Source: a virus. From it: DNA of 64,000 nt. Position numbers and translations under genes: made by a program. The notes beneath the pieces are model-generated. The model saw only the letters and a program-made list of their open reading frames with translations, made no database searches and was not told the origin of the DNA. Of this stretch, positions 7,805 to 59,726 are shown piece after piece (position 1 is the first letter of the stretch; each line of letters opens with the position of its first letter). The stretch covers positions 1 through 64,000 of the IMG/VR virus record IMGVR_UViG_3300008116_000011. The stretch is one strand, 5' to 3'.

Positions 7805-8719
7805 TTATTTTTTATTTAAATGCTCAAATAAATTAGGTTTTGCTTGAGCAAAATTACGCATAATAATAGCTGCTCTAGAATTAGCTTCATTTTCATCATC
7901 ACTACCTGTAGTTCCAGAGTCTGATTTTAAGCGACCTTCTAAATCTTGTTTATAATGTACTAATTCATGTGCTAATGTTCTAAAAATATCTGCTGGGTGT
8001 CTTTTGGCTATTACTATGTTAATTGATTTGTCACTTGGTCTATATCCACCCCAAGAGCGCAAATCAATTGCTTCTTGTGAGTCGTTAGATAAGGTAATTT
8101 TAGGTAGTTTTTCTAGTTGAAGTTCATCCATTACATGCTTCATAAACTCACTAACTAAACTTTTATTTAAATTTTCTTTTAATATTTCAACATCTTGAGG
8201 ATCAACAATAATTGCTTTAATTTTATCTTTACCCAAAAGTTTATGTGCAAAATATCTATGATGACCATCTACAATTTGATACTTATTTCCTAATTCACGT
8301 ACAATAATTGGAGGTAATTCTTTACCTGCTTTAATAGTTTTTATAAGATCTTTTAATGTGGCTTTAGATTTAGGCTCTAACATTTTACTAGCAGGCTCAT
8401 TTAATAGTAACATATCTAATGGAATATCACTAGTAGGCATTTTACTAATTTCTATTTCACTGTAGTCAACATCTGCACCTTGACCTCCAGGATATATTTT
8501 AACTTTAATTTCTAGATTTAATTTATCAAGTTTTGTATAATATTTTGGATCTTCTACTAAATGATCCATAGCAATACGTGCAGCACGTTTTGCATTATCA
8601 GTATGTTCTTTTTCAACTTTAACACCCTTTTTTAATTCTTTTTTAAGGGTATCTACATCTACCTTATGTTTTTTTGCAATGTCTCCAATAGACATTCCTT
8701 TAGATAATCCGTTTGCCAT
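7805..8719 (-). CDS. Three-module fusion: DUF5661-like + ParB/Srx-like + HEXXH metallopeptidase-like
   Basis: GVKVEKEH...IAMDHL.E.PKYY; PPIIV...IVDGHHR; RTLAHELVH..Q...ENEAN. Confidence 0.7.
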   Translation of the reverse strand: MANGLSKGMSIGDIAKKHKVDVDTLKKELKKGVKVEKEHTDNAKRAARIAMDHLVEDPKYYTKLDKLNLEIKVKIYPGGQGADVDYSEIEISKMPTSDIPLDMLLLNEPASKMLEPKSKATLKDLIKTIKAGKELPPIIVRELGNKYQIVDGHHRYFAHKLLGKDKIKAIIVDPQDVEILKENLNKSLVSEFMKHVMDELQLEKLPKITLSNDSQEAIDLRSWGGYRPSDKSINIVIAKRHPADIFRTLAHELVHYKQDLEGRLKSDSGTTGSDDENEANSRAAIIMRNFAQAKPNLFEHLNKK

Positions 8720-8780
8720 GTATATAAATATAAAAAAAGGCTTGGATATACCAAGCCTATTTTAAACATATAGATGTAAT

Positions 8781-23302: not shown

Positions 23303-26300
23303 TTATGTTGTTGTATTAATTCCCACATCTATCAACTGTTGATTTACATTTTTCGTAATTTGATCAATATTATCTAGTACTGCTGGGTTGATATTTTGAG
23401 GTATGTTAAAGCCATAAGATGTTTTACCTACTGGTTTAGGAAAATCTAATATAATGCTGGTTTCGTCTTGTAATCTTTTTAAGAACAAAATTCTATAAAA
23501 TTTATTACATAAGTTTCCGAAGTATCCGTCTATATCTTCTTTAGTATAAATGTATACGTTTCCTGTTCCTCCTGCTATAGATGAACTTGCAACAGTATAT
23601 ACAAGTGCTGAGCCACTAGGGCTTTCGATTTGTGCTACTATTTTATCATTTTCTTCTAAAACGAATGGGTATAAAATATCTCCATAGGTAAGGTATAAAT
23701 TAGCATATGAAGCCGAAACAGCTGCATCTAAAGGATTAAAAAAGTAAGCAGGACCATAATACGGAGATAATGATGAACTTAAGAAAAAGGCATTTTGGGT
23801 TTGATCAACACATACCTTAGTATCAGTGGCTGTTAAAGTATTATTTGAAGGAACAACTTTTAAAATTCCACCTTCTTTTATTGTAGCAGAAGTTATTCCT
23901 GTTGTATTAGAGTCAACAAAAAATCTAAATTCTACTAAATCTCCAGGATTAGCAACTCCTAAAGTATCTACAATTACTGATCTTCTAAATGATAATAGTT
24001 GGGTTGATCCTCCACCTCCTGGGGCTGTTAATTGGCTATATAATTTTATAAAAGTATAATTAGAACTACTAAAGCCACTAGCTTGATCAGCCCAGAAAAA
24101 TCCTAAATTAGTTCTAAAAGTTTCTGAGTTAGCAAAAGAGAATGGTATTCCTGTTACTCTATATAACCTATAGGTAGTATTTGTGTTTATAGGTAATATA
24201 TTAAATGGAGTTGTATCTGTAGGTAAGTTATACTCATATATATCAAATCCTGTTGGTATTGTTATAGTCACAGATTGATCTTGTACTATAATATTACTAA
24301 ACCCGTTTGGAACTTGACCTAAAACTCCTCTATAAAACACATCATTAAATGGAGCTATAATCTTATTTTGATCAAGAAGAGTAGCACCTGCTGAGCTACT
24401 TAACCATACTTCCATACTAGCTGTAAGACTATTAACAGGGCTACTTACAGAAGCAGTAGCAGCAACATTAAAATTATAACTAAATTCATAGATACCATTT
24501 GCGGGTATTTGATAATAAGAAGATGTTACATTAATAGGAGTTCCTGTAGGATCAACTCCATTTCCTGGTCCAACGCCTGGGAAGAAATAAAGTCCATCAT
24601 TGTTGTTAGTATTAGTAGAATTAAATAAATTCCATACCTCATACATGTTTACAGATCCTATAAGTGAATAACTTGAAGAAGTAAAAGTAACACTTGATGG
24701 AATTACATCACCCTGATCAATATATATTGTAAAATATCTATTTAATATATTTTGTGAACCTAACTGAACTGGAACAAAAGCAGCACTTGAATCCCACTCT
24801 GCAGGAGTTGATTCATCTCCATAGGCATAATAAACAGGGAAATAAGCATATCCACTTTCGTATATAAATTTATTTCCATTAGTTTGTATCTGATTAGAAT
24901 ATTTTTGTGGATCAAATAAAGACACATTTAGTGTATCTCCAGTCTTAAATGTATTTTGTACTTCTACCCAATTTCTATTACGTTTATTTAGTTCAGTTAA
25001 TCTACCTGTTTCATCAACTAAATACTTTAATCTAACATTACTTTTATAAGGTAAATAAGTATTATCTACAACTTCAGTAAATAAACCTAATTTTTTAACA
25101 TAATAATTAATTACAGGAGAACTACCATAAGATACATCTCCAATAGACCATGTATTAAATAATCTACCATATAATTGAACACCATCATATCTTGGTGTAA
25201 CATATGAATGTAAAGAAAGATATGAATCTTGCAATTCAACTGATTCAGTTATAGAATAAGAAATATAATTAGCATTATTAGTTCCTGCAGAATATATTGG
25301 TACTAGTTTTTTTCTATATTCAGATGTTAAACTTACATCTATATTATTTTGCAATACATTAAAATCTGAATTTAAAAAGAAATTTTCAAATCTAGGAGAA
25401 TTATATTCTAATACAAATTCTGTACTACCACTAATAAACCCAGGAGGAACATACCCTACAGTATTGTTTACTAAAAACGGATTTCTATTGTTTTCTTCAA
25501 AAACTAAATAAGTATCAAGTTCAGAACCAGGTATAGCACCATCATAATAGTCGGCTTTATCTCCTGCTAAATAATAATAATAAGGATCATATATAGGTTC
25601 TAAAGAAGCACTATCTGTTGTAGTAGAAAATTCATTTGTTTGTGTAAATCTAGGTTCATATTGAGCAACCTTAGGTCGTTCAAGTACAGGTGATTTAATA
25701 GAAACACCTGTCCAAGTATTACCTCTGGCAGGAGTAAAGTCTTTGATCATTTTAAATAATGAATTATCAAAGAATTGTATTAATCTTATAAACCCACCAT
25801 AATCAAAAGGTTCATCAAATGTTTGCCCAAACCAATAATCACGTTCAAGTGATAAAGAAGGATATGTATTTAATTCTAAATCTCTAGGATCACCAATATA
25901 ATTGTCTATTACCCATGTTGGATCAACAGTAGTAATTGAAGCAGATACAGCAGCATCAATCTGTGTTTCTGGAGAAAATGAAACATCAATAAAGTGTAAA
26001 TCTTGGCTTTTTATAGCTCTAGACGAAGTTGGAGATGTTTCTAAACGTTTAATTGAAGATAAAACACTACCTGTAATAGTATTTGAACCTAAAGTAATTT
26101 TATTTGGGTTGTATCCTTTTAAATCCTGATAATCTGTTGTACCCCCATATTCTTTAATAGGAAGAATAGAACCAGTAATACCAAATGCAGTAATTAAACC
26201 TTGTAATCCACCATGTGATCCTTTAGTTTTAAATAAATAAGGTAAATTATGGTATAATCTTTTATAGTTATCTAATACTAAATCTTTTCTAGGTACGTTA

Positions 26301-34824: not shown

Positions 34825-35613
34825 TTATATTTTTATATAACCCTCTTGGTAATATTTATTATATAAATCAACGTATATCGACTTTAGCTTCTTAATAATC
34901 TTAGTAATTTGAGGGGTATCTACGTCAACCATTTCACGTATATAAATGTATAATGCCTTCTTGTTAAAAATATCTAATGATTCACATTTACGAAACAATT
35001 CCATTATGGCGTCGGCTGTTTTAGCATCATTTTCTTTTGGAAATAATTTACTAAGATTTTTATCAACATACCTAATATATAAACTCATAAACTCGGTAAT
35101 GCTATAATCTTGACTATAGTAACTATTAATCGTTTCTTCTTTAATTTTCTTATCGTCATCTACTTCCGCCAAATCACCTTTATCCTGTAATTTTTGGTAA
35201 TTCTTTTTGTTTTTAAGGATAAGATAACGTTTGGCTATAGTACCAAAGTATGAGTATGCTTTACCCTTATGTGGCTTATATAACTTAAGTTTCTCAAGTA
35301 AAAACGCAATTACCTCTTGTTGTACATCCTCTACCGATTCACCATCGGTATAGTAAAATTTAAACGTATGGATAATATTTTGGGTTAATTTAAAAAATCC
35401 ATACTCAATACGCTCGCGATAGACATTATTTCTAAATTCTTGGTCTTCCGAAGCAACATACTCAACAATAGCATTCTGAGTGTCTTCGGTAAAATAGGTA
35501 TTAGATGTCTTAGGTTTGCGTTTACGTGGCTTACCGGATTTAGTTAATTCAACTGTTATAGAATTATCTTCTACTAGAAGGTGGGGTTGACTGTGTGTTT
35601 CTGTTGTTTTCAT
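34825..35613 (-). CDS. Phage RNA polymerase sigma factor (late, T4 gp55-like)
   Basis: YFT...AIVEY; KAYSYFGTIAKRYL region-2-like motif. Confidence 0.7.
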   Translation of the reverse strand: MKTTETHSQPHLLVEDNSITVELTKSGKPRKRKPKTSNTYFTEDTQNAIVEYVASEDQEFRNNVYRERIEYGFFKLTQNIIHTFKFYYTDGESVEDVQQEVIAFLLEKLKLYKPHKGKAYSYFGTIAKRYLILKNKKNYQKLQDKGDLAEVDDDKKIKEETINSYYSQDYSITEFMSLYIRYVDKNLSKLFPKENDAKTADAIMELFRKCESLDIFNKKALYIYIREMVDVDTPQITKIIKKLKSIYVDLYNKYYQEGYIKI

Positions 35614-46456: not shown

Positions 46457-46909
46457 CTATTGTTCAAGTATCCAACTACATTCATTAAAAGCTCTTTCAA
46501 TATTTCTTTTAGCAAAGTCTTCTGCTTGTAACTCATAAGGATTCTTCCAATAACCATATTTGTCTAATAATTCAAAATACACTTTCATATCTTGAGTATA
46601 ATGACAAAACTCATGTAATAATGAATGTGTTAAAGATTTTACTGTTTTATTTCGTTTTAAATGGATTGTAATTAAATTATCTTCTTTCACCCAATCAGCA
46701 ACACCAATAAAATGCTTTGTATTGCGTCTTAAAACATTAACTCCTGGTTTGCGTTTCGGTGCTTTATATCTGTATATTTTAAATTTGATTTTTTTATGGT
46801 ATGGTTTGTGGTACTCCTTATGTAATAAGTTAAGTACTTCTTTAACATAAGCAATTAAAACCTTTCTCGGTAGTTTGCGAGTACGAGTATATAAAGATAT
46901 ATTGCTCAT
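46457..46909 (-). CDS. HEXXH zinc metallopeptidase-like protein
   Basis: SLLHEFCHYTQ...NPYELQA. Confidence 0.65.
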   Translation of the reverse strand: MSNISLYTRTRKLPRKVLIAYVKEVLNLLHKEYHKPYHKKIKFKIYRYKAPKRKPGVNVLRRNTKHFIGVADWVKEDNLITIHLKRNKTVKSLTHSLLHEFCHYTQDMKVYFELLDKYGYWKNPYELQAEDFAKRNIERAFNECSWILEQ

Positions 46910-57305: not shown

Positions 57306-57461
57306 CTGTCAGGGAAGGATTCGAACCTTCACGCAGCGATTCAATAAGCAACAAATTAAGCCGGCTTTGTGGTCAACCCCTATTACTTATCTATTTCGAT
57401 ATCTGCGCCCACGAGACGAGTGGGTGTGTCTGCCGTGTAGCTACCCTTTCACCACCTGACA
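57306..57461 (-). ncRNA. Non-canonical tRNA-like RNA (156 nt) with expanded D-loop and ~80-nt variable arm
   Basis: Acceptor TGTCAGG/CCTGACA + G; T-arm GAAGG TTCGAAT CCTTC; stem CCCAC/GTGGG with loop TCGTCTC. Confidence 0.75.
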
Positions 57462-57664: not shown

Positions 57665-57714
57665 ATGTTAAATATACGTTAAAAAAATAGGGTAACCAAA
57701 AATGGTTACCCTAA

Positions 57715-58055
57715 AAAATTGATGGGAATAACGATTACCCACAATCCCTGGACGGACCCCTTTTCACCTATAGTCCACAAAGATGATCAGTCTAAGTGTT
57801 AAGACTAGCTGGATTGTCTACCAGCAACGCCTGCGGAGATCGTCTTGATTTATCTTCGGCGTATCCAGAGCACTGTTGGGTTGCGCATTCTACCCTTAGT
57901 GATGGTGGTTTTAACTCATCCGTCTGTGATACCCAACTCAACGGTTTTTCAACCGTCTCGCCAGTGCCTTAGTCCCTCTCAAGAACTTATTCAGCCACAG
58001 TTTGTAAATGACTTAGCCTGGGACAGTGAACCAGGAGAACTGTGCTAAGTACTTG
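57715..58055 (-). ncRNA. Candidate ~340-nt structured non-coding RNA
   Basis: Elevated GC, many helices, GAAA tetraloop, TATTTATA at 58060-58067 upstream, hairpin + T-tract downstream. Confidence 0.6.
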
Positions 58056-58059
58056 TGTA

Positions 58060-58119
58060 TATAAATATATCAAAGATCTAGAAAACCGCTAATTTATTTA
58101 TTTTTTTTTAATATTTATA
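58060..58119. promoter_or_regulatory. Divergent TATTTATA late-promoter-like motifs (minus 58060-58067, plus 58112-58119)
   Basis: Same octamer precedes many minus-strand structural genes. Confidence 0.6.
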
Positions 58120-58153: not shown

Positions 58154-58321
58154 ATGAAAGATCAATTATTAGGACTTATCAGACATGCTTTAACCTTTGT
58201 TGGTGGTATTGTTGTTACTAAAGGTTTAATTGATGAAAGTTTGTCTCAAGAAGTAATCGGTGGTATTATGACGTTGGTTGGTGCTGTTTGGTCCATCGTT
58301 TCTAAAAAGAAAGTTGCTTAA
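58154..58321 (+). CDS. Putative holin (55 aa, two TM; not in ORF track)
   Basis: MKDQLLGLIRHALTFVGGIVVTKGLIDESLSQEVIGGIMTLVGAVWSIVSKKKVA; RH.LT..GG and WS motifs. Confidence 0.7.
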   Translation: MKDQLLGLIRHALTFVGGIVVTKGLIDESLSQEVIGGIMTLVGAVWSIVSKKKVA

Positions 58322-59302: not shown

Positions 59303-59339
59303 TTTGTTTTTTGTTTTTTAATTAATAAATATAAATCAG

Positions 59340-59726
59340 TGGAGATAGTGGGATTCGAACCCACGTCTCCGAAAGAGACAATAATACTAACGTCTCACAT
59401 GCTTAGTACTGCTTGCGCTGCACCGTAAGGGCTGACCTGGTTAGGGTCAAATTCCACCACTTGATTTTATGACTATCAAGAAAACTAACTCACAGTCCTT
59501 ATTTAACGAGTCGATCGTGAATACTCGGTGGTATTCTGTTCCTAGGTTACTCACACCCGATGCGGACTAAGCAAATGTTGCTTCGTCGGCGCCTACGAAC
59601 GCCATAAGGTCGTCGAAGGTCATGGTTGACATTTCGTCATTTATTGTTTAGTATCTTCTAAGGCAGTATACTCAAATGCCTGCATGTAGTATTACCTCTG
59701 CATCCGGATCAATACCGGTTATCCCC
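59340..59726 (-). ncRNA. ssrA: tmRNA
   Basis: 5' GGGGATA pairs with 3' TATCTCC-A (G3-U70); T-arm GTGGG TTCGAAT CCCAC; tag ORF 59638-59567 after ATAAAT. Confidence 0.9.

What the first reader, a model, noticed from the sequence alone, without database searches (positions are those of the whole stretch)
57715..58055. Candidate novel ~340-nt structured ncRNA with 5' pseudoknot, own promoter and terminator
Seen on the minus strand: ACTTAGC/GCTAAGT enclosing CCTGG/CCAGG; CACAGTT/AACTGTG crossing it (pseudoknot or alternative fold); GCACTG/CAGTGC enclosing ACGGTT-GAAA-AACCGT and GTTGGGT/ACCCAAC; CTCTGGA/TCCAGGG; CTGG/CCAG; AGTCT/AGACT; GGACT/GGTCC; terminal hairpin and T-tract. TATTTATA lies immediately upstream. 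I see no RNase P, tmRNA or group I core motifs. Established: large ncRNAs such as GOLLD and ROOL occur near phage tRNA clusters. Inference: a late-expressed structured RNA of unknown class.
Basis: partly seen in the sequence, partly recalled or inferred. Interest (0 to 1): 0.75.

Follow-up and report, generated by a model that had tools for sequence, protein, structure and literature searches.

The report
Enlarged manA-like RNA gene in phage
The flagged stretch is a real, intricately folded non-coding RNA gene that this large uncultured phage keeps among its tRNA and tmRNA genes. It is an enlarged, uncatalogued cousin of the "manA" RNA, which a 2026 preprint reports to build RNA-only cages.

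Summary
Window 58055-57681 (minus strand) is a GC-rich, ORF-free RNA gene with a conserved promoter-like box and an intrinsic terminator.

I collected about 30 distinct homologues, all from phage or metagenome contigs. On 25 of them a structure of 11 helices is 95.8% paired, against 37-47% for slid controls. 43 pairs show compensatory changes.

Its long-range pairs and its 5' pseudoknot are not supported. A different pseudoknot is supported: ACGAU 57843-57839 with AUCGU 57735-57731.

The RNA is not of unknown class. It is a roughly 290-nt enlarged relative of manA (Rfam RF01745). It shares manA's closing helix, GCUGAAUAA/CUAAGGC module, terminal GGGUAAUC hairpin and loop pseudoknot. It scores only 19.8 bits against a cut-off of 55.2, and sister sequences scoring 42 bits bridge the two.

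Every member lies in a tRNA/tmRNA island. Many abut a tmRNA 3' end or a tRNA 5' end. This argues for a stand-alone processed RNA rather than a riboswitch.

Self-assembly like manA, ROOL and GOLLD is my preferred mechanism, but it is inferred and untested.

This scan had already reached the same reading on other genomes.

The parts
58057..58070 (-). Promoter-like box ATATATTTATATAC. It contains TATATTTA, which resembles the Bacteroidota -7 element TAnnTTTG. The inferred transcription start is near 58055.
   Evidence: 5 matches in the window, all on the minus strand, against 0.68 expected. TATATTTATA or TATTTATA lies 11-64 nt upstream of the RNA core in W, L132, L139, L143, L144, L161, L168 and L175. 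The promoter function itself is inferred.
58010..58050 (-). Optional 5' hairpin. The outer stem is ACUUAGC 58050-58044 with GCUAAGU 58017-58011. The likely inner stem is ACAGU 58043-58039 with ACUGU 58027-58023. It contains CACAGUU, which is complementary to the P1 5' strand.
   Evidence: identical in L138 and L166. L144 differs only in the apical CCUGGUUC to CAACGUUU. The hairpin is absent from most members; the fold is not better than shuffles (z = -0.38).
57998..58004 (-). P1 closing helix, 5' strand (CAAACUG). It pairs with 57721-57715.
   Evidence: in the family 6 of 7 pairs covary and 78.6% of cells are paired. In the window 5 of 7 pairs form: G57998-C57721, U57999-A57720, C58000.A57719 (mismatch), A58001-U57718, A58002-U57717, A58003-U57716.
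57966..57997 (-). manA signature module: UG, GCU 57995-57993 with GGC 57968-57966, internal loop GAAUA / AA, and hairpin 57987-57981 with 57977-57971 (loop GAG).
   Evidence: aligned to manA positions about 24-62 at high posterior probability. (0 expected by chance in the window). (100% and 98.9% paired, 3 and 5 covarying pairs).
57933..57964 (-). Stem CUGGC..GUUGG carrying the hairpin ACGGUU-GAAA-AACCGU. The GAAA tetraloop is 57950-57947.
   Evidence: 94.5-98% paired and 8-9 covarying pairs. The GAAA loop is invariant except in L150, which has GCAA.
57918..57924 (-). Long-range helix, 5' strand GACGGAU. It pairs with GUCCGUC 57757-57751 and encloses the large inserted domain.
   Evidence: 100% paired on 25 sequences and 5 of 6 pairs covary. 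Variants seen: GACGGAU/GUCCGUC, GACGAGU/GCUCGUC, GGUGAGU/GCUCAUC, AGCACGU/GCGUGU.
57865..57909 (-). Sub-domain: ACC 57909-57907 with 57768-57766; CCA 57905-57903 with UGG 57867-57865; CACU 57901-57898 with AGUG 57874-57871; GGGU 57895-57892 with ACCC 57881-57878.
Evidence: CACU/AGUG changes to GUUC/GAAC in L132 and L144.
57827..57862 (-). Stem ACGCC 57862-57858 with GGCGU 57831-57827. Its interior holds the invariant GAUCU and the pseudoknot strand ACGAU 57843-57839.
   Evidence: ACGCC/GGCGU changes to ACAUC/GAUGU. (pseudoknot). (aligned to the 7-bp stem of manA).
57808..57825 (-). Hairpin GCUGG-UAGACAAU-CCAGC. It looks like a second copy of the terminal manA-type hairpin.
   Evidence: 100% paired and 3 covarying pairs. 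The Rfam model mistook it for manA's last hairpin.
57771..57807 (-). UAGUC 57807-57803 with GACUA 57775-57771, enclosing CACUUAGA 57798-57791 with UCUUUGUG 57783-57776. The loop is CUGAUCA 57790-57784 and contains the palindrome UGAUCA.
   Evidence: 100% and 97% paired with covariation in both helices. UGAUCA is invariant in 25 of 25 sequences.
57722..57742 (-). Terminal manA-type hairpin GUGGG-UAAUCGUUAUU-CCCAU. Loop bases AUCGU 57735-57731 pair with ACGAU 57843-57839 to form the pseudoknot or kissing contact.
   Evidence: 100% paired, 3 covarying pairs; the pseudoknot is 94.4% paired against 5-60% for slid controls, 23 cells have changes on both sides, and the variants seen are ACGAU/AUCGU, CUGAU/AUCAG, UAGAU/AUCUA and AUGAU/AUCAU.
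57715..57721 (-). P1 closing helix, 3' strand (CAAUUUU).
57681..57713 (-). Intrinsic terminator: an 11-bp stem (UAGGGUAACCA / UGGUUACCCUA) followed by U7.
   Evidence: a terminator with a different stem sequence follows the RNA in 14 of the 15 members of the window's clade that have sequence downstream.

Best explanation
Shown:
- 58055-57681 (minus strand) is a stand-alone gene for a conserved, non-coding, highly structured RNA.
- The core is about 290 nt (58004-57715). In this phage it carries an extra 5' hairpin and is followed by an intrinsic terminator.
- It belongs to a family seen only in phage and metagenome contigs, always in tRNA/tmRNA islands.
- The core is closed by helix P1. It holds the manA signature module, a GAAA-capped stem, and a long-range helix enclosing a large inserted domain. 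It ends in a manA-type hairpin whose loop base-pairs with the interior of another stem.

Inferred:
- It is an enlarged evolutionary relative of manA (RF01745).
- In the window it is transcribed from its own promoter. In relatives it is made with tmRNA or tRNAs and released by their processing enzymes, RNase P at a downstream tRNA and the tmRNA 3'-end trimming.
- It acts as a free RNA, not as an mRNA leader.

Most likely mechanism (inferred, untested): like manA, ROOL and GOLLD it self-assembles into a closed RNA-only oligomer. The covarying ACGAU/AUCGU contact, the invariant palindromic UGAUCA loop and the GAAA tetraloop would serve as contacts between molecules. The particle's job during infection is unknown. 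A link to the phage's translation RNAs is suggested only by where it sits in the genome.
For: Real structured RNA:
- GC island.
- No conserved ORF, and 1-nt indels are common.
- A2: 97.6% of cells paired against 35-43% slid, and 36 against 4-9 pairs with compensatory change.
- A3: 95.8% against 37-47%, 43 against 10-18, covariation score 0.50 against 0.06-0.15, and 0 of 500 shuffles reach it.
- Pseudoknot.

Related to manA:
- Full-model Rfam hits at 19.8 bits for W (E 0.005), 26.2 for L132, 31.1 for L122 and 42.2 for L137 (E 1e-9 locally).
- The W-type HMM hits L137 and L122 over their full length at E 1e-8.
- The same motif pattern retrieves true manA RNAs of 78-79 bits.
- In the Rfam consensus the loop words aCUgu and acAgu are complementary, at positions similar to the pseudoknot found here. 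Weinberg 2010 marks a 'pseudoknot?' in manA.

Stand-alone:
- A terminator follows in 14 of 15 clade members.
- A tmRNA ends 10-14 nt upstream in 4 members.
- A tRNA starts 12-25 nt downstream in 10 members.
- The genes downstream differ from member to member.

Self-assembly precedent:
- manA RNAs form decamers and a 60-mer cage through kissing loops and a GNRA-receptor contact (bioRxiv 10.64898/2026.07.01.735769).
- ROOL and GOLLD are phage RNAs near tRNA islands that form nanocages (PMC12286853).
Against: - No member reaches manA's gathering score.
- The middle of the RNA is not alignable to manA. Sequence similarity to canonical manA is limited to the signature module and hairpin, so convergent reuse of modules cannot be excluded.
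- P1 is weak in the window (5 of 7 pairs, A-U rich).
- No expression data could be obtained.
- Nothing here shows oligomerisation. The covarying loop contact could be an ordinary intramolecular pseudoknot, and invariant loops could bind a protein or another RNA.
- The manA cages are from an in-vitro preprint, and my matching of its loop numbers to this RNA is a guess.
- A close relative of the phage (G006, baseplate protein 84% identical) lacks the RNA at the syntenic place, so it is dispensable for this phage group.
Confidence: 0.5

Rival explanations
1. It is a free RNA that works with the neighbouring translation RNAs or against host factors that target them. It might be a cofactor or chaperone for phage tmRNA or tRNAs, a decoy for host RNases or tRNA-cleaving defence nucleases, or a protein-binding scaffold. 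It would act as a monomer or RNP rather than as a self-assembled cage.
For: Every member lies in a tRNA/tmRNA island, and many are physically fused to a tmRNA or tRNA transcript. Several single-stranded stretches are invariant and could be binding sites: GAGUUAAAAC, GUGAAAAGGGG and CUGAUCA.
Against: No partner is identified. No protein gene is consistently adjacent (and the varied contexts). Members of the divergent clade occur without a tmRNA nearby. The manA relatives assemble without protein in vitro.
Confidence: 0.27
2. It is a cis-acting riboswitch or attenuator, the classical reading of manA. A ligand-bound aptamer would control the terminator at 57713-57681 and so the downstream 66-aa membrane protein, tRNA-like RNA and glycosyltransferase genes.
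For: manA was proposed as a riboswitch candidate upstream of sugar-metabolism genes (PMC2864571). This phage is rich in sugar genes, and a terminator follows the RNA. GGGUAAUC in the last hairpin resembles the terminator arm GGGUAACC.
Against: Downstream genes are not conserved: they are tRNAs, unrelated ORFs or another promoter. Many members have a tRNA instead of a terminator. The terminator stems do not overlap the conserved structure, and the similarity to the terminator arm is absent in L138 and L143. In four members the RNA begins 10-14 nt after a tmRNA.
Confidence: 0.08
3. It is a ribozyme, for example a self-cleaving or processing RNA that liberates itself or its neighbours from the tmRNA/tRNA precursor.
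For: It has a complex pseudoknotted fold with invariant junction nucleotides. It sits directly at tmRNA and tRNA boundaries, where cleavage must occur.
Against: There is no match to any Rfam ribozyme even at E up to 10. The boundaries are the normal RNase P and tmRNA-processing sites. Members with their own promoter and terminator need no cleavage.
Confidence: 0.05

Closest known systems
manA RNA motif (Rfam RF01745; Weinberg et al. 2010, PMC2864571; cryo-EM preprint 10.64898/2026.07.01.735769)
   Same: - A closing helix directly 5' of UG.
- The GCUGAAUAA-hairpin-CUAAGGC module.
- A 5-bp terminal hairpin of the form GNGGG-UA..AU-CCCNC with an 11-nt loop, lying next to the 3' strand of the closing helix.
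- A covarying loop contact that involves that hairpin's loop.
- Phage origin.
- A GNRA tetraloop in some members.
   Different: - About 290 nt against about 190 nt.
- The 7-bp stem region is expanded by roughly 170 nt, with a long-range helix, six extra helices and a second copy of the terminal-type hairpin.
- It scores 19.8 bits (family members up to 42) against a cut-off of 55.2.
- It lies in tRNA/tmRNA islands of Flavobacterium-phage-like myoviruses with its own terminator, not in 5' UTRs of sugar, nucleotide or photosynthesis genes of cyanophages and marine gamma-proteobacteria.
ROOL and GOLLD RNAs (Rfam; Kretsch et al. 2025, PMC12286853)
   Same: They are phage or prophage-encoded ornate RNAs of unknown function, found near or inside tRNA islands and sometimes covalently next to tRNAs. 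They form RNA-only cages held by a few loop-loop contacts.
   Different: There is no sequence or covariance-model similarity (no Rfam hit at E up to 10). This RNA is much smaller: 290 nt against about 580 nt for ROOL (size from memory) and over 800 nt for GOLLD. Assembly is not shown for this RNA.
Phage T4 species 1 and species 2 RNAs (rnaC, rnaD) in the T4 tRNA cluster (from my own knowledge, not checked here)
   Same: They are stable non-tRNA RNAs of unknown function encoded within a phage tRNA operon and released by tRNA-processing enzymes.
   Different: The T4 RNAs are smaller, and I know of no similarity in sequence or structure. This was not compared here.

Membership tests
manA RNA (RF01745) | Score at or above Rfam's gathering threshold (55.2 bits) | tested here: not met
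   The window scores 19.8 bits, E 0.005 on the 391-nt region. Family members score 26.2, 31.1 and 42.2 bits. True manA RNAs in L009 and L014 score 78-79 bits.
manA RNA (RF01745) | Signature module GUG-RC-UGAAUAA / hairpin / UAAGG-YR | tested here: met
   UGUGGCUGAAUAA..CUAAGGCAC lies at 57999-57964. It aligns at high posterior probability, has 0 expected by chance, and the hairpin covaries.
manA RNA (RF01745) | Closing helix whose 5' strand precedes the module and whose 3' strand directly follows the terminal hairpin | tested here: met
   The family's P1 covaries in 6 of 7 pairs. In the window it is weak, with 5 of 7 pairs.
manA RNA (RF01745) | Terminal 5-bp hairpin GNGGG-UA...AAU-CCCNC with an 11-nt loop | tested here: met
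   57742-57722, GUGGG-UAAUCGUUAUU-CCCAU. It is 100% paired with 3 covarying pairs. In L137 the Rfam model aligns this hairpin to manA's last hairpin.
manA RNA (RF01745) | Predicted pseudoknot between the loop of the 7-bp-stem domain and the terminal hairpin loop | tested here: met
   ACGAU 57843-57839 with AUCGU 57735-57731: 94.4% paired and two pairs with three pair types each. The equivalence to manA's 'pseudoknot?' rests on the complementary consensus loops seen and is inferred.
manA RNA (RF01745) | Middle domain of three small hairpins inside one stem; overall length about 190 nt | tested here: not met
   The middle is replaced by a GAAA-capped stem plus a domain of about 170 nt inside the long-range helix. 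The Rfam alignment has low posterior probability there.
manA RNA (RF01745) | Position in the 5' UTR of sugar, nucleotide or photosynthesis genes (cis-regulatory) | tested here: not met
   It lies in a tRNA/tmRNA island with its own terminator, and the downstream genes vary.
manA RNA (RF01745) | Pentamer-based self-assembly (preprint) | not testable with these tools
   Only the candidate contact elements can be seen: the pseudoknot, the UGAUCA loop and the GAAA loop.
ROOL / GOLLD | Match to the Rfam covariance models | tested here: not met
   No hit at E up to 10 on the region, nor at gathering score on the window.
ROOL / GOLLD | Phage-encoded, near tRNA islands | tested here: met
   The literature basis is PMC12286853.

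The most novel reading that the evidence does not exclude
manA and its enlarged relatives are not riboswitches at all. Instead they are a third lineage, beside ROOL and GOLLD, of phage 'cage RNAs' made from tRNA/tmRNA operons. In this reading the covarying loop contact found here (ACGAU/AUCGU) is an intermolecular kissing interface. It would build a closed particle that holds or shields translation RNAs or ribosomal components during infection.
Probability: 0.3. Interest if true: 0.8.

Novelty: new variant of a known kind. Interest (0 to 1): 0.6.

Why it matters
manA has been an orphan 'riboswitch candidate' since 2010, and a 2026 preprint shows that it builds RNA-only cages in vitro. Here an enlarged relative is encoded as a separate, processed RNA in the tRNA/tmRNA islands of large Flavobacterium-phage-like viruses, the same genomic niche as the cage-forming ROOL and GOLLD RNAs.

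This gives three things:
- genomic evidence against a cis-regulatory role for this branch of the family;
- about 30 natural variants with a well-supported secondary structure and one covarying tertiary contact, usable for cryo-EM and assembly tests;
- a concrete test (cis versus trans rescue of ACGAU/AUCGU) of whether covariation in such RNAs reports contacts between molecules.

Tried and rejected
- Rfam at gathering score over the window found only 2 tRNAs and the tmRNA.
- blastn against 50,697 phage records found no match with W, L143, L150 or L137 as query.
- Relatives found through the neighbouring glycosyltransferase (L002, L003) and through the baseplate protein (22 records) lack the RNA. 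This includes G006, which is syntenic around the tmRNA.
- The closest cultured phages, Flavobacterium phage immuto and Microcystis phage Mel-JY01, have no manA hit and no pattern match.
- The genome-contig scan gave 120 loci, none of which was hit by the family HMM, so they are chance matches.
- The helix UGUG/CACA predicted on 10 sequences fails in the divergent clade and clashes with P1, so I dropped it.
- Protein coding is rejected.
- RNase P, 6S, Y RNA and group I are rejected. The only hits were noise-level, such as Y RNA at 13.9 bits and DUF2693 at 17.9 bits.
- A conserved anti-terminator was sought and not found (by eye).
- I did not build a covariance model of the whole family, because at about 300 positions it would exceed the tool's calibration limit.

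Full report
**Setting.** The window is the first 64 kb of a complete 174,437-bp virus record with direct terminal repeats and about 30% G+C. Its baseplate wedge protein is 43.6% identical to that of Flavobacterium phage vB_FspM_immuto, the closest cultured relative.

On the minus strand the order of genes is:
- tmRNA, 59726-59337
- tRNA-Thr and tRNA-Leu, 58547-58376
- a small holin gene on the plus strand, 58154-58321 (Pfam Phage_holin_10)
- the flagged stretch
- a 66-aa ORF with a hydrophobic sequence and no Pfam match (57664-57464)
- a tRNA-like element
- a 329-aa ORF with no Pfam match, which a first-stage note calls HtrL-like.

**Observation.** The stretch is a G+C island, 0.46-0.49. It has no ORF beyond what shuffles give, and its fold is slightly better than shuffles, z = -2.2. 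The box ATATATTTATATAC lies at 58070-58057. It occurs 5 times in the window, all on the minus strand, against 0.68 expected. A strong intrinsic terminator lies at 57713-57681.

**Homologues.** Rfam at gathering score gave nothing here. In E-value mode the only meaningful hit was manA (RF01745): the full model, 19.8 bits, E 0.005 on the region. It had high-confidence matches at UGUGGCUGAAUAA..CUAAGGCAC and at a GG-UA..AAU-CC hairpin.

Patterns built on those words retrieved several groups:
- true manA RNAs of 78-79 bits
- intermediates such as L004 (37 bits) and L012 (42 bits)
- full-length relatives of the window's RNA, for example L132 at 80% identity over 273 nt and L121 and L123 at 70%.

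Two further patterns taken from conserved words of these relatives added about 28 phage contigs of up to 185 kb. A profile HMM confirmed them at E 1e-43 to 1e-97. The same HMM hit none of the 120 bacterial or archaeal loci that one of the patterns pulled from genome contigs. Cultured-phage records have no match. The window's own genome has a single copy.

**Structure.**
- On 10 sequences RNAalifold gave 75 pairs in 14 helices. Of the cells, 97.6% are paired against 35-43% when partners are slid. 36 pairs carry compensatory changes against 4-9 in the slid controls.
- On 25 distinct sequences, with the closing helix P1 added, 95.8% of cells are paired against 37-47%. 43 pairs carry compensatory changes against 10-18. 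The covariation score is 0.50 against 0.06-0.15, and no shuffle reaches it.
- Window coordinates of the helices are listed under 'parts'.

The notable elements are:
- the manA module;
- a stem capped by a nearly invariant GAAA tetraloop;
- a long-range helix, GACGGAU 57924-57918 with GUCCGUC 57757-57751, seen in four complementary versions;
- a hairpin whose loop CUGAUCA contains the palindrome UGAUCA, invariant in 25 of 25 sequences;
- two hairpins of the manA terminal type.

A scan for covarying pairs outside the nested structure found a pseudoknot: ACGAU 57843-57839 with AUCGU 57735-57731, which lies in the loop of the last hairpin. The variants seen are ACGAU/AUCGU, CUGAU/AUCAG, UAGAU/AUCUA and AUGAU/AUCAU. 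It is 94.4% paired against 5-60% slid, with 23 cells changed on both sides against 0-4.

These are confirmed: ACGGUU-GAAA-AACCGU, GCUGG/CCAGC and the terminator. These are replaced by competing helices that covary:
- GCACUG/CAGUGC
- GUUGGGU/ACCCAAC
- CUCUGGA/UCCAGGG
- AGUCU/AGACU
- GGACU/GGUCC

The 5' hairpin (58050-58010) is present only in W, L138, L166 and L144. L144 changes CCUGGUUC to CAACGUUU.

CACAGUU in this hairpin is a perfect complement of the P1 5' strand AACUGUG. The members that carry the hairpin have the weakest P1. It never varies, and the local fold is no better than shuffles.

**Relation to manA.** Five defining features are met:
- the closing helix
- the signature module
- the terminal hairpin
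- the position of that hairpin next to the 3' strand of P1
- a loop pseudoknot.

Three are not met: the gathering score, the middle domain and length, and the 5'-UTR context. The sister sequences L137 and L122 tie the two groups together. Rfam aligns their whole length to manA (42.2 bits, E 1e-9 locally), and the W-type HMM aligns their whole length at E 1e-8. They also keep the pseudoknot, CUGAU with AUCAG (seen by eye).

I therefore read the window's RNA as an enlarged, uncatalogued branch of a wider manA superfamily. I do not read it as a member of RF01745 as that family is defined.

**Context and mode of action.** Every family member with flanking sequence lies in a tRNA/tmRNA island.
- In the window's clade, 14 of the 15 members with downstream sequence have an intrinsic terminator right after P1, and the stem sequences differ.
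- Upstream there is either a tmRNA ending 10-14 nt away (L140, L142, L170, L174; 60 nt in L138) or the TATATTTATA box 11-64 nt away.
- In ten other members (the divergent clade plus L123 and L122) a tRNA gene starts 12-25 nt after the last hairpin.
- Downstream genes are not conserved.

This fits a discrete RNA released by tRNA and tmRNA processing, and it argues against a leader or riboswitch.

A 2026 preprint reports that manA RNAs assemble in vitro into pentamer-based decamers and a 60-mer cage through kissing loops and a GNRA-receptor contact. ROOL and GOLLD, which are phage RNAs near tRNA islands, form nanocages. By analogy, I judge self-assembly the most likely mechanism, given the covarying loop contact, the palindromic loop and the GAAA loop. 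This is inference; nothing here measures it.

I suspect that the contact found here corresponds to the preprint's L8-L9' interface. That rests on my own counting of helices in the Rfam consensus and should be treated as a lead.

**Limits.**
- There are no expression data.
- P1 is weak in the window.
- A close relative of the phage lacks the RNA at the syntenic site.
- Homology to manA outside the shared modules is not demonstrable.

**Earlier notes of this scan.** These were consulted only after my own reading was formed; the look-up showed only first-reader notes on this genome. They show that follow-up agents reached the same conclusion on other genomes: an enlarged manA-like RNA beside tmRNA. 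My analysis agrees and adds one point. One of their 'two self-complementary loops', the GAUC word in GAUCUCC, is explained here by its covarying pairing with the terminal hairpin loop.

Noticed in passing
window 57306-57461 (minus strand); L113:1740-1900: A tRNA-like element with a T-arm and a long insert lies downstream of the 66-aa ORF. A clearly homologous copy follows tRNA-Leu in the related phage G006. ARAGORN does not call it a tRNA.
   Followed up: partly
L113:1900-2640 (related phage G006): Where the window has the manA-like RNA, G006 instead has about 700 nt of GC-rich (0.40-0.47) ORF-poor sequence. It holds two more tRNA-like 3' ends. One scores 39 bits as a tRNA at 2171-2278, and another ends in GGUUCGAGUCCGG near 2590. 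It looks like a variable island of RNA genes.
   Followed up: no
L116, L120, L124, L125, L126, L133, L134, L136, L007 (metagenome and viral contigs): Another family of about 250 nt shares the GUGGCUGAAUAA-hairpin-CUAAGGCAC module and conserved words such as GGCUAAUUCUGUGAGGGCAAAC and CACUACUGCGGAGG. The seven copies included in the Rfam scan (L116, L120, L124, L125, L134, L007 and the partial copy L127) got no manA hit at E 0.05. It is probably a further uncatalogued manA-like branch.
   Followed up: no
L122:820-860 and L137:4660-4700: The sister RNAs carry a second GUGGCUGAAUAA word inside their 3' domain, which suggests internal duplication of the signature module.
   Followed up: no
window 59337-59726 (minus strand): The phage tmRNA has a 23-residue acidic tag ending in FA. 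Relatives carry near-identical long tags ending in AVAA or ALAA.
   Followed up: no
window 58154-58321 (plus strand): A 55-aa holin (Pfam Phage_holin_10, E 5e-20) is encoded on the opposite strand between tRNA-Leu and the RNA gene. The same holin sits next to the tRNA island in G006.
   Followed up: partly
window 8720-8733, 24860-24873, 34938-34951, 46887-46900: Four further one-mismatch copies of the ATATATTTATAKAC box were found, all on the minus strand. One lies directly before the start of the ParB-like ORF at 8719. This may be a phage promoter motif.
   Followed up: no
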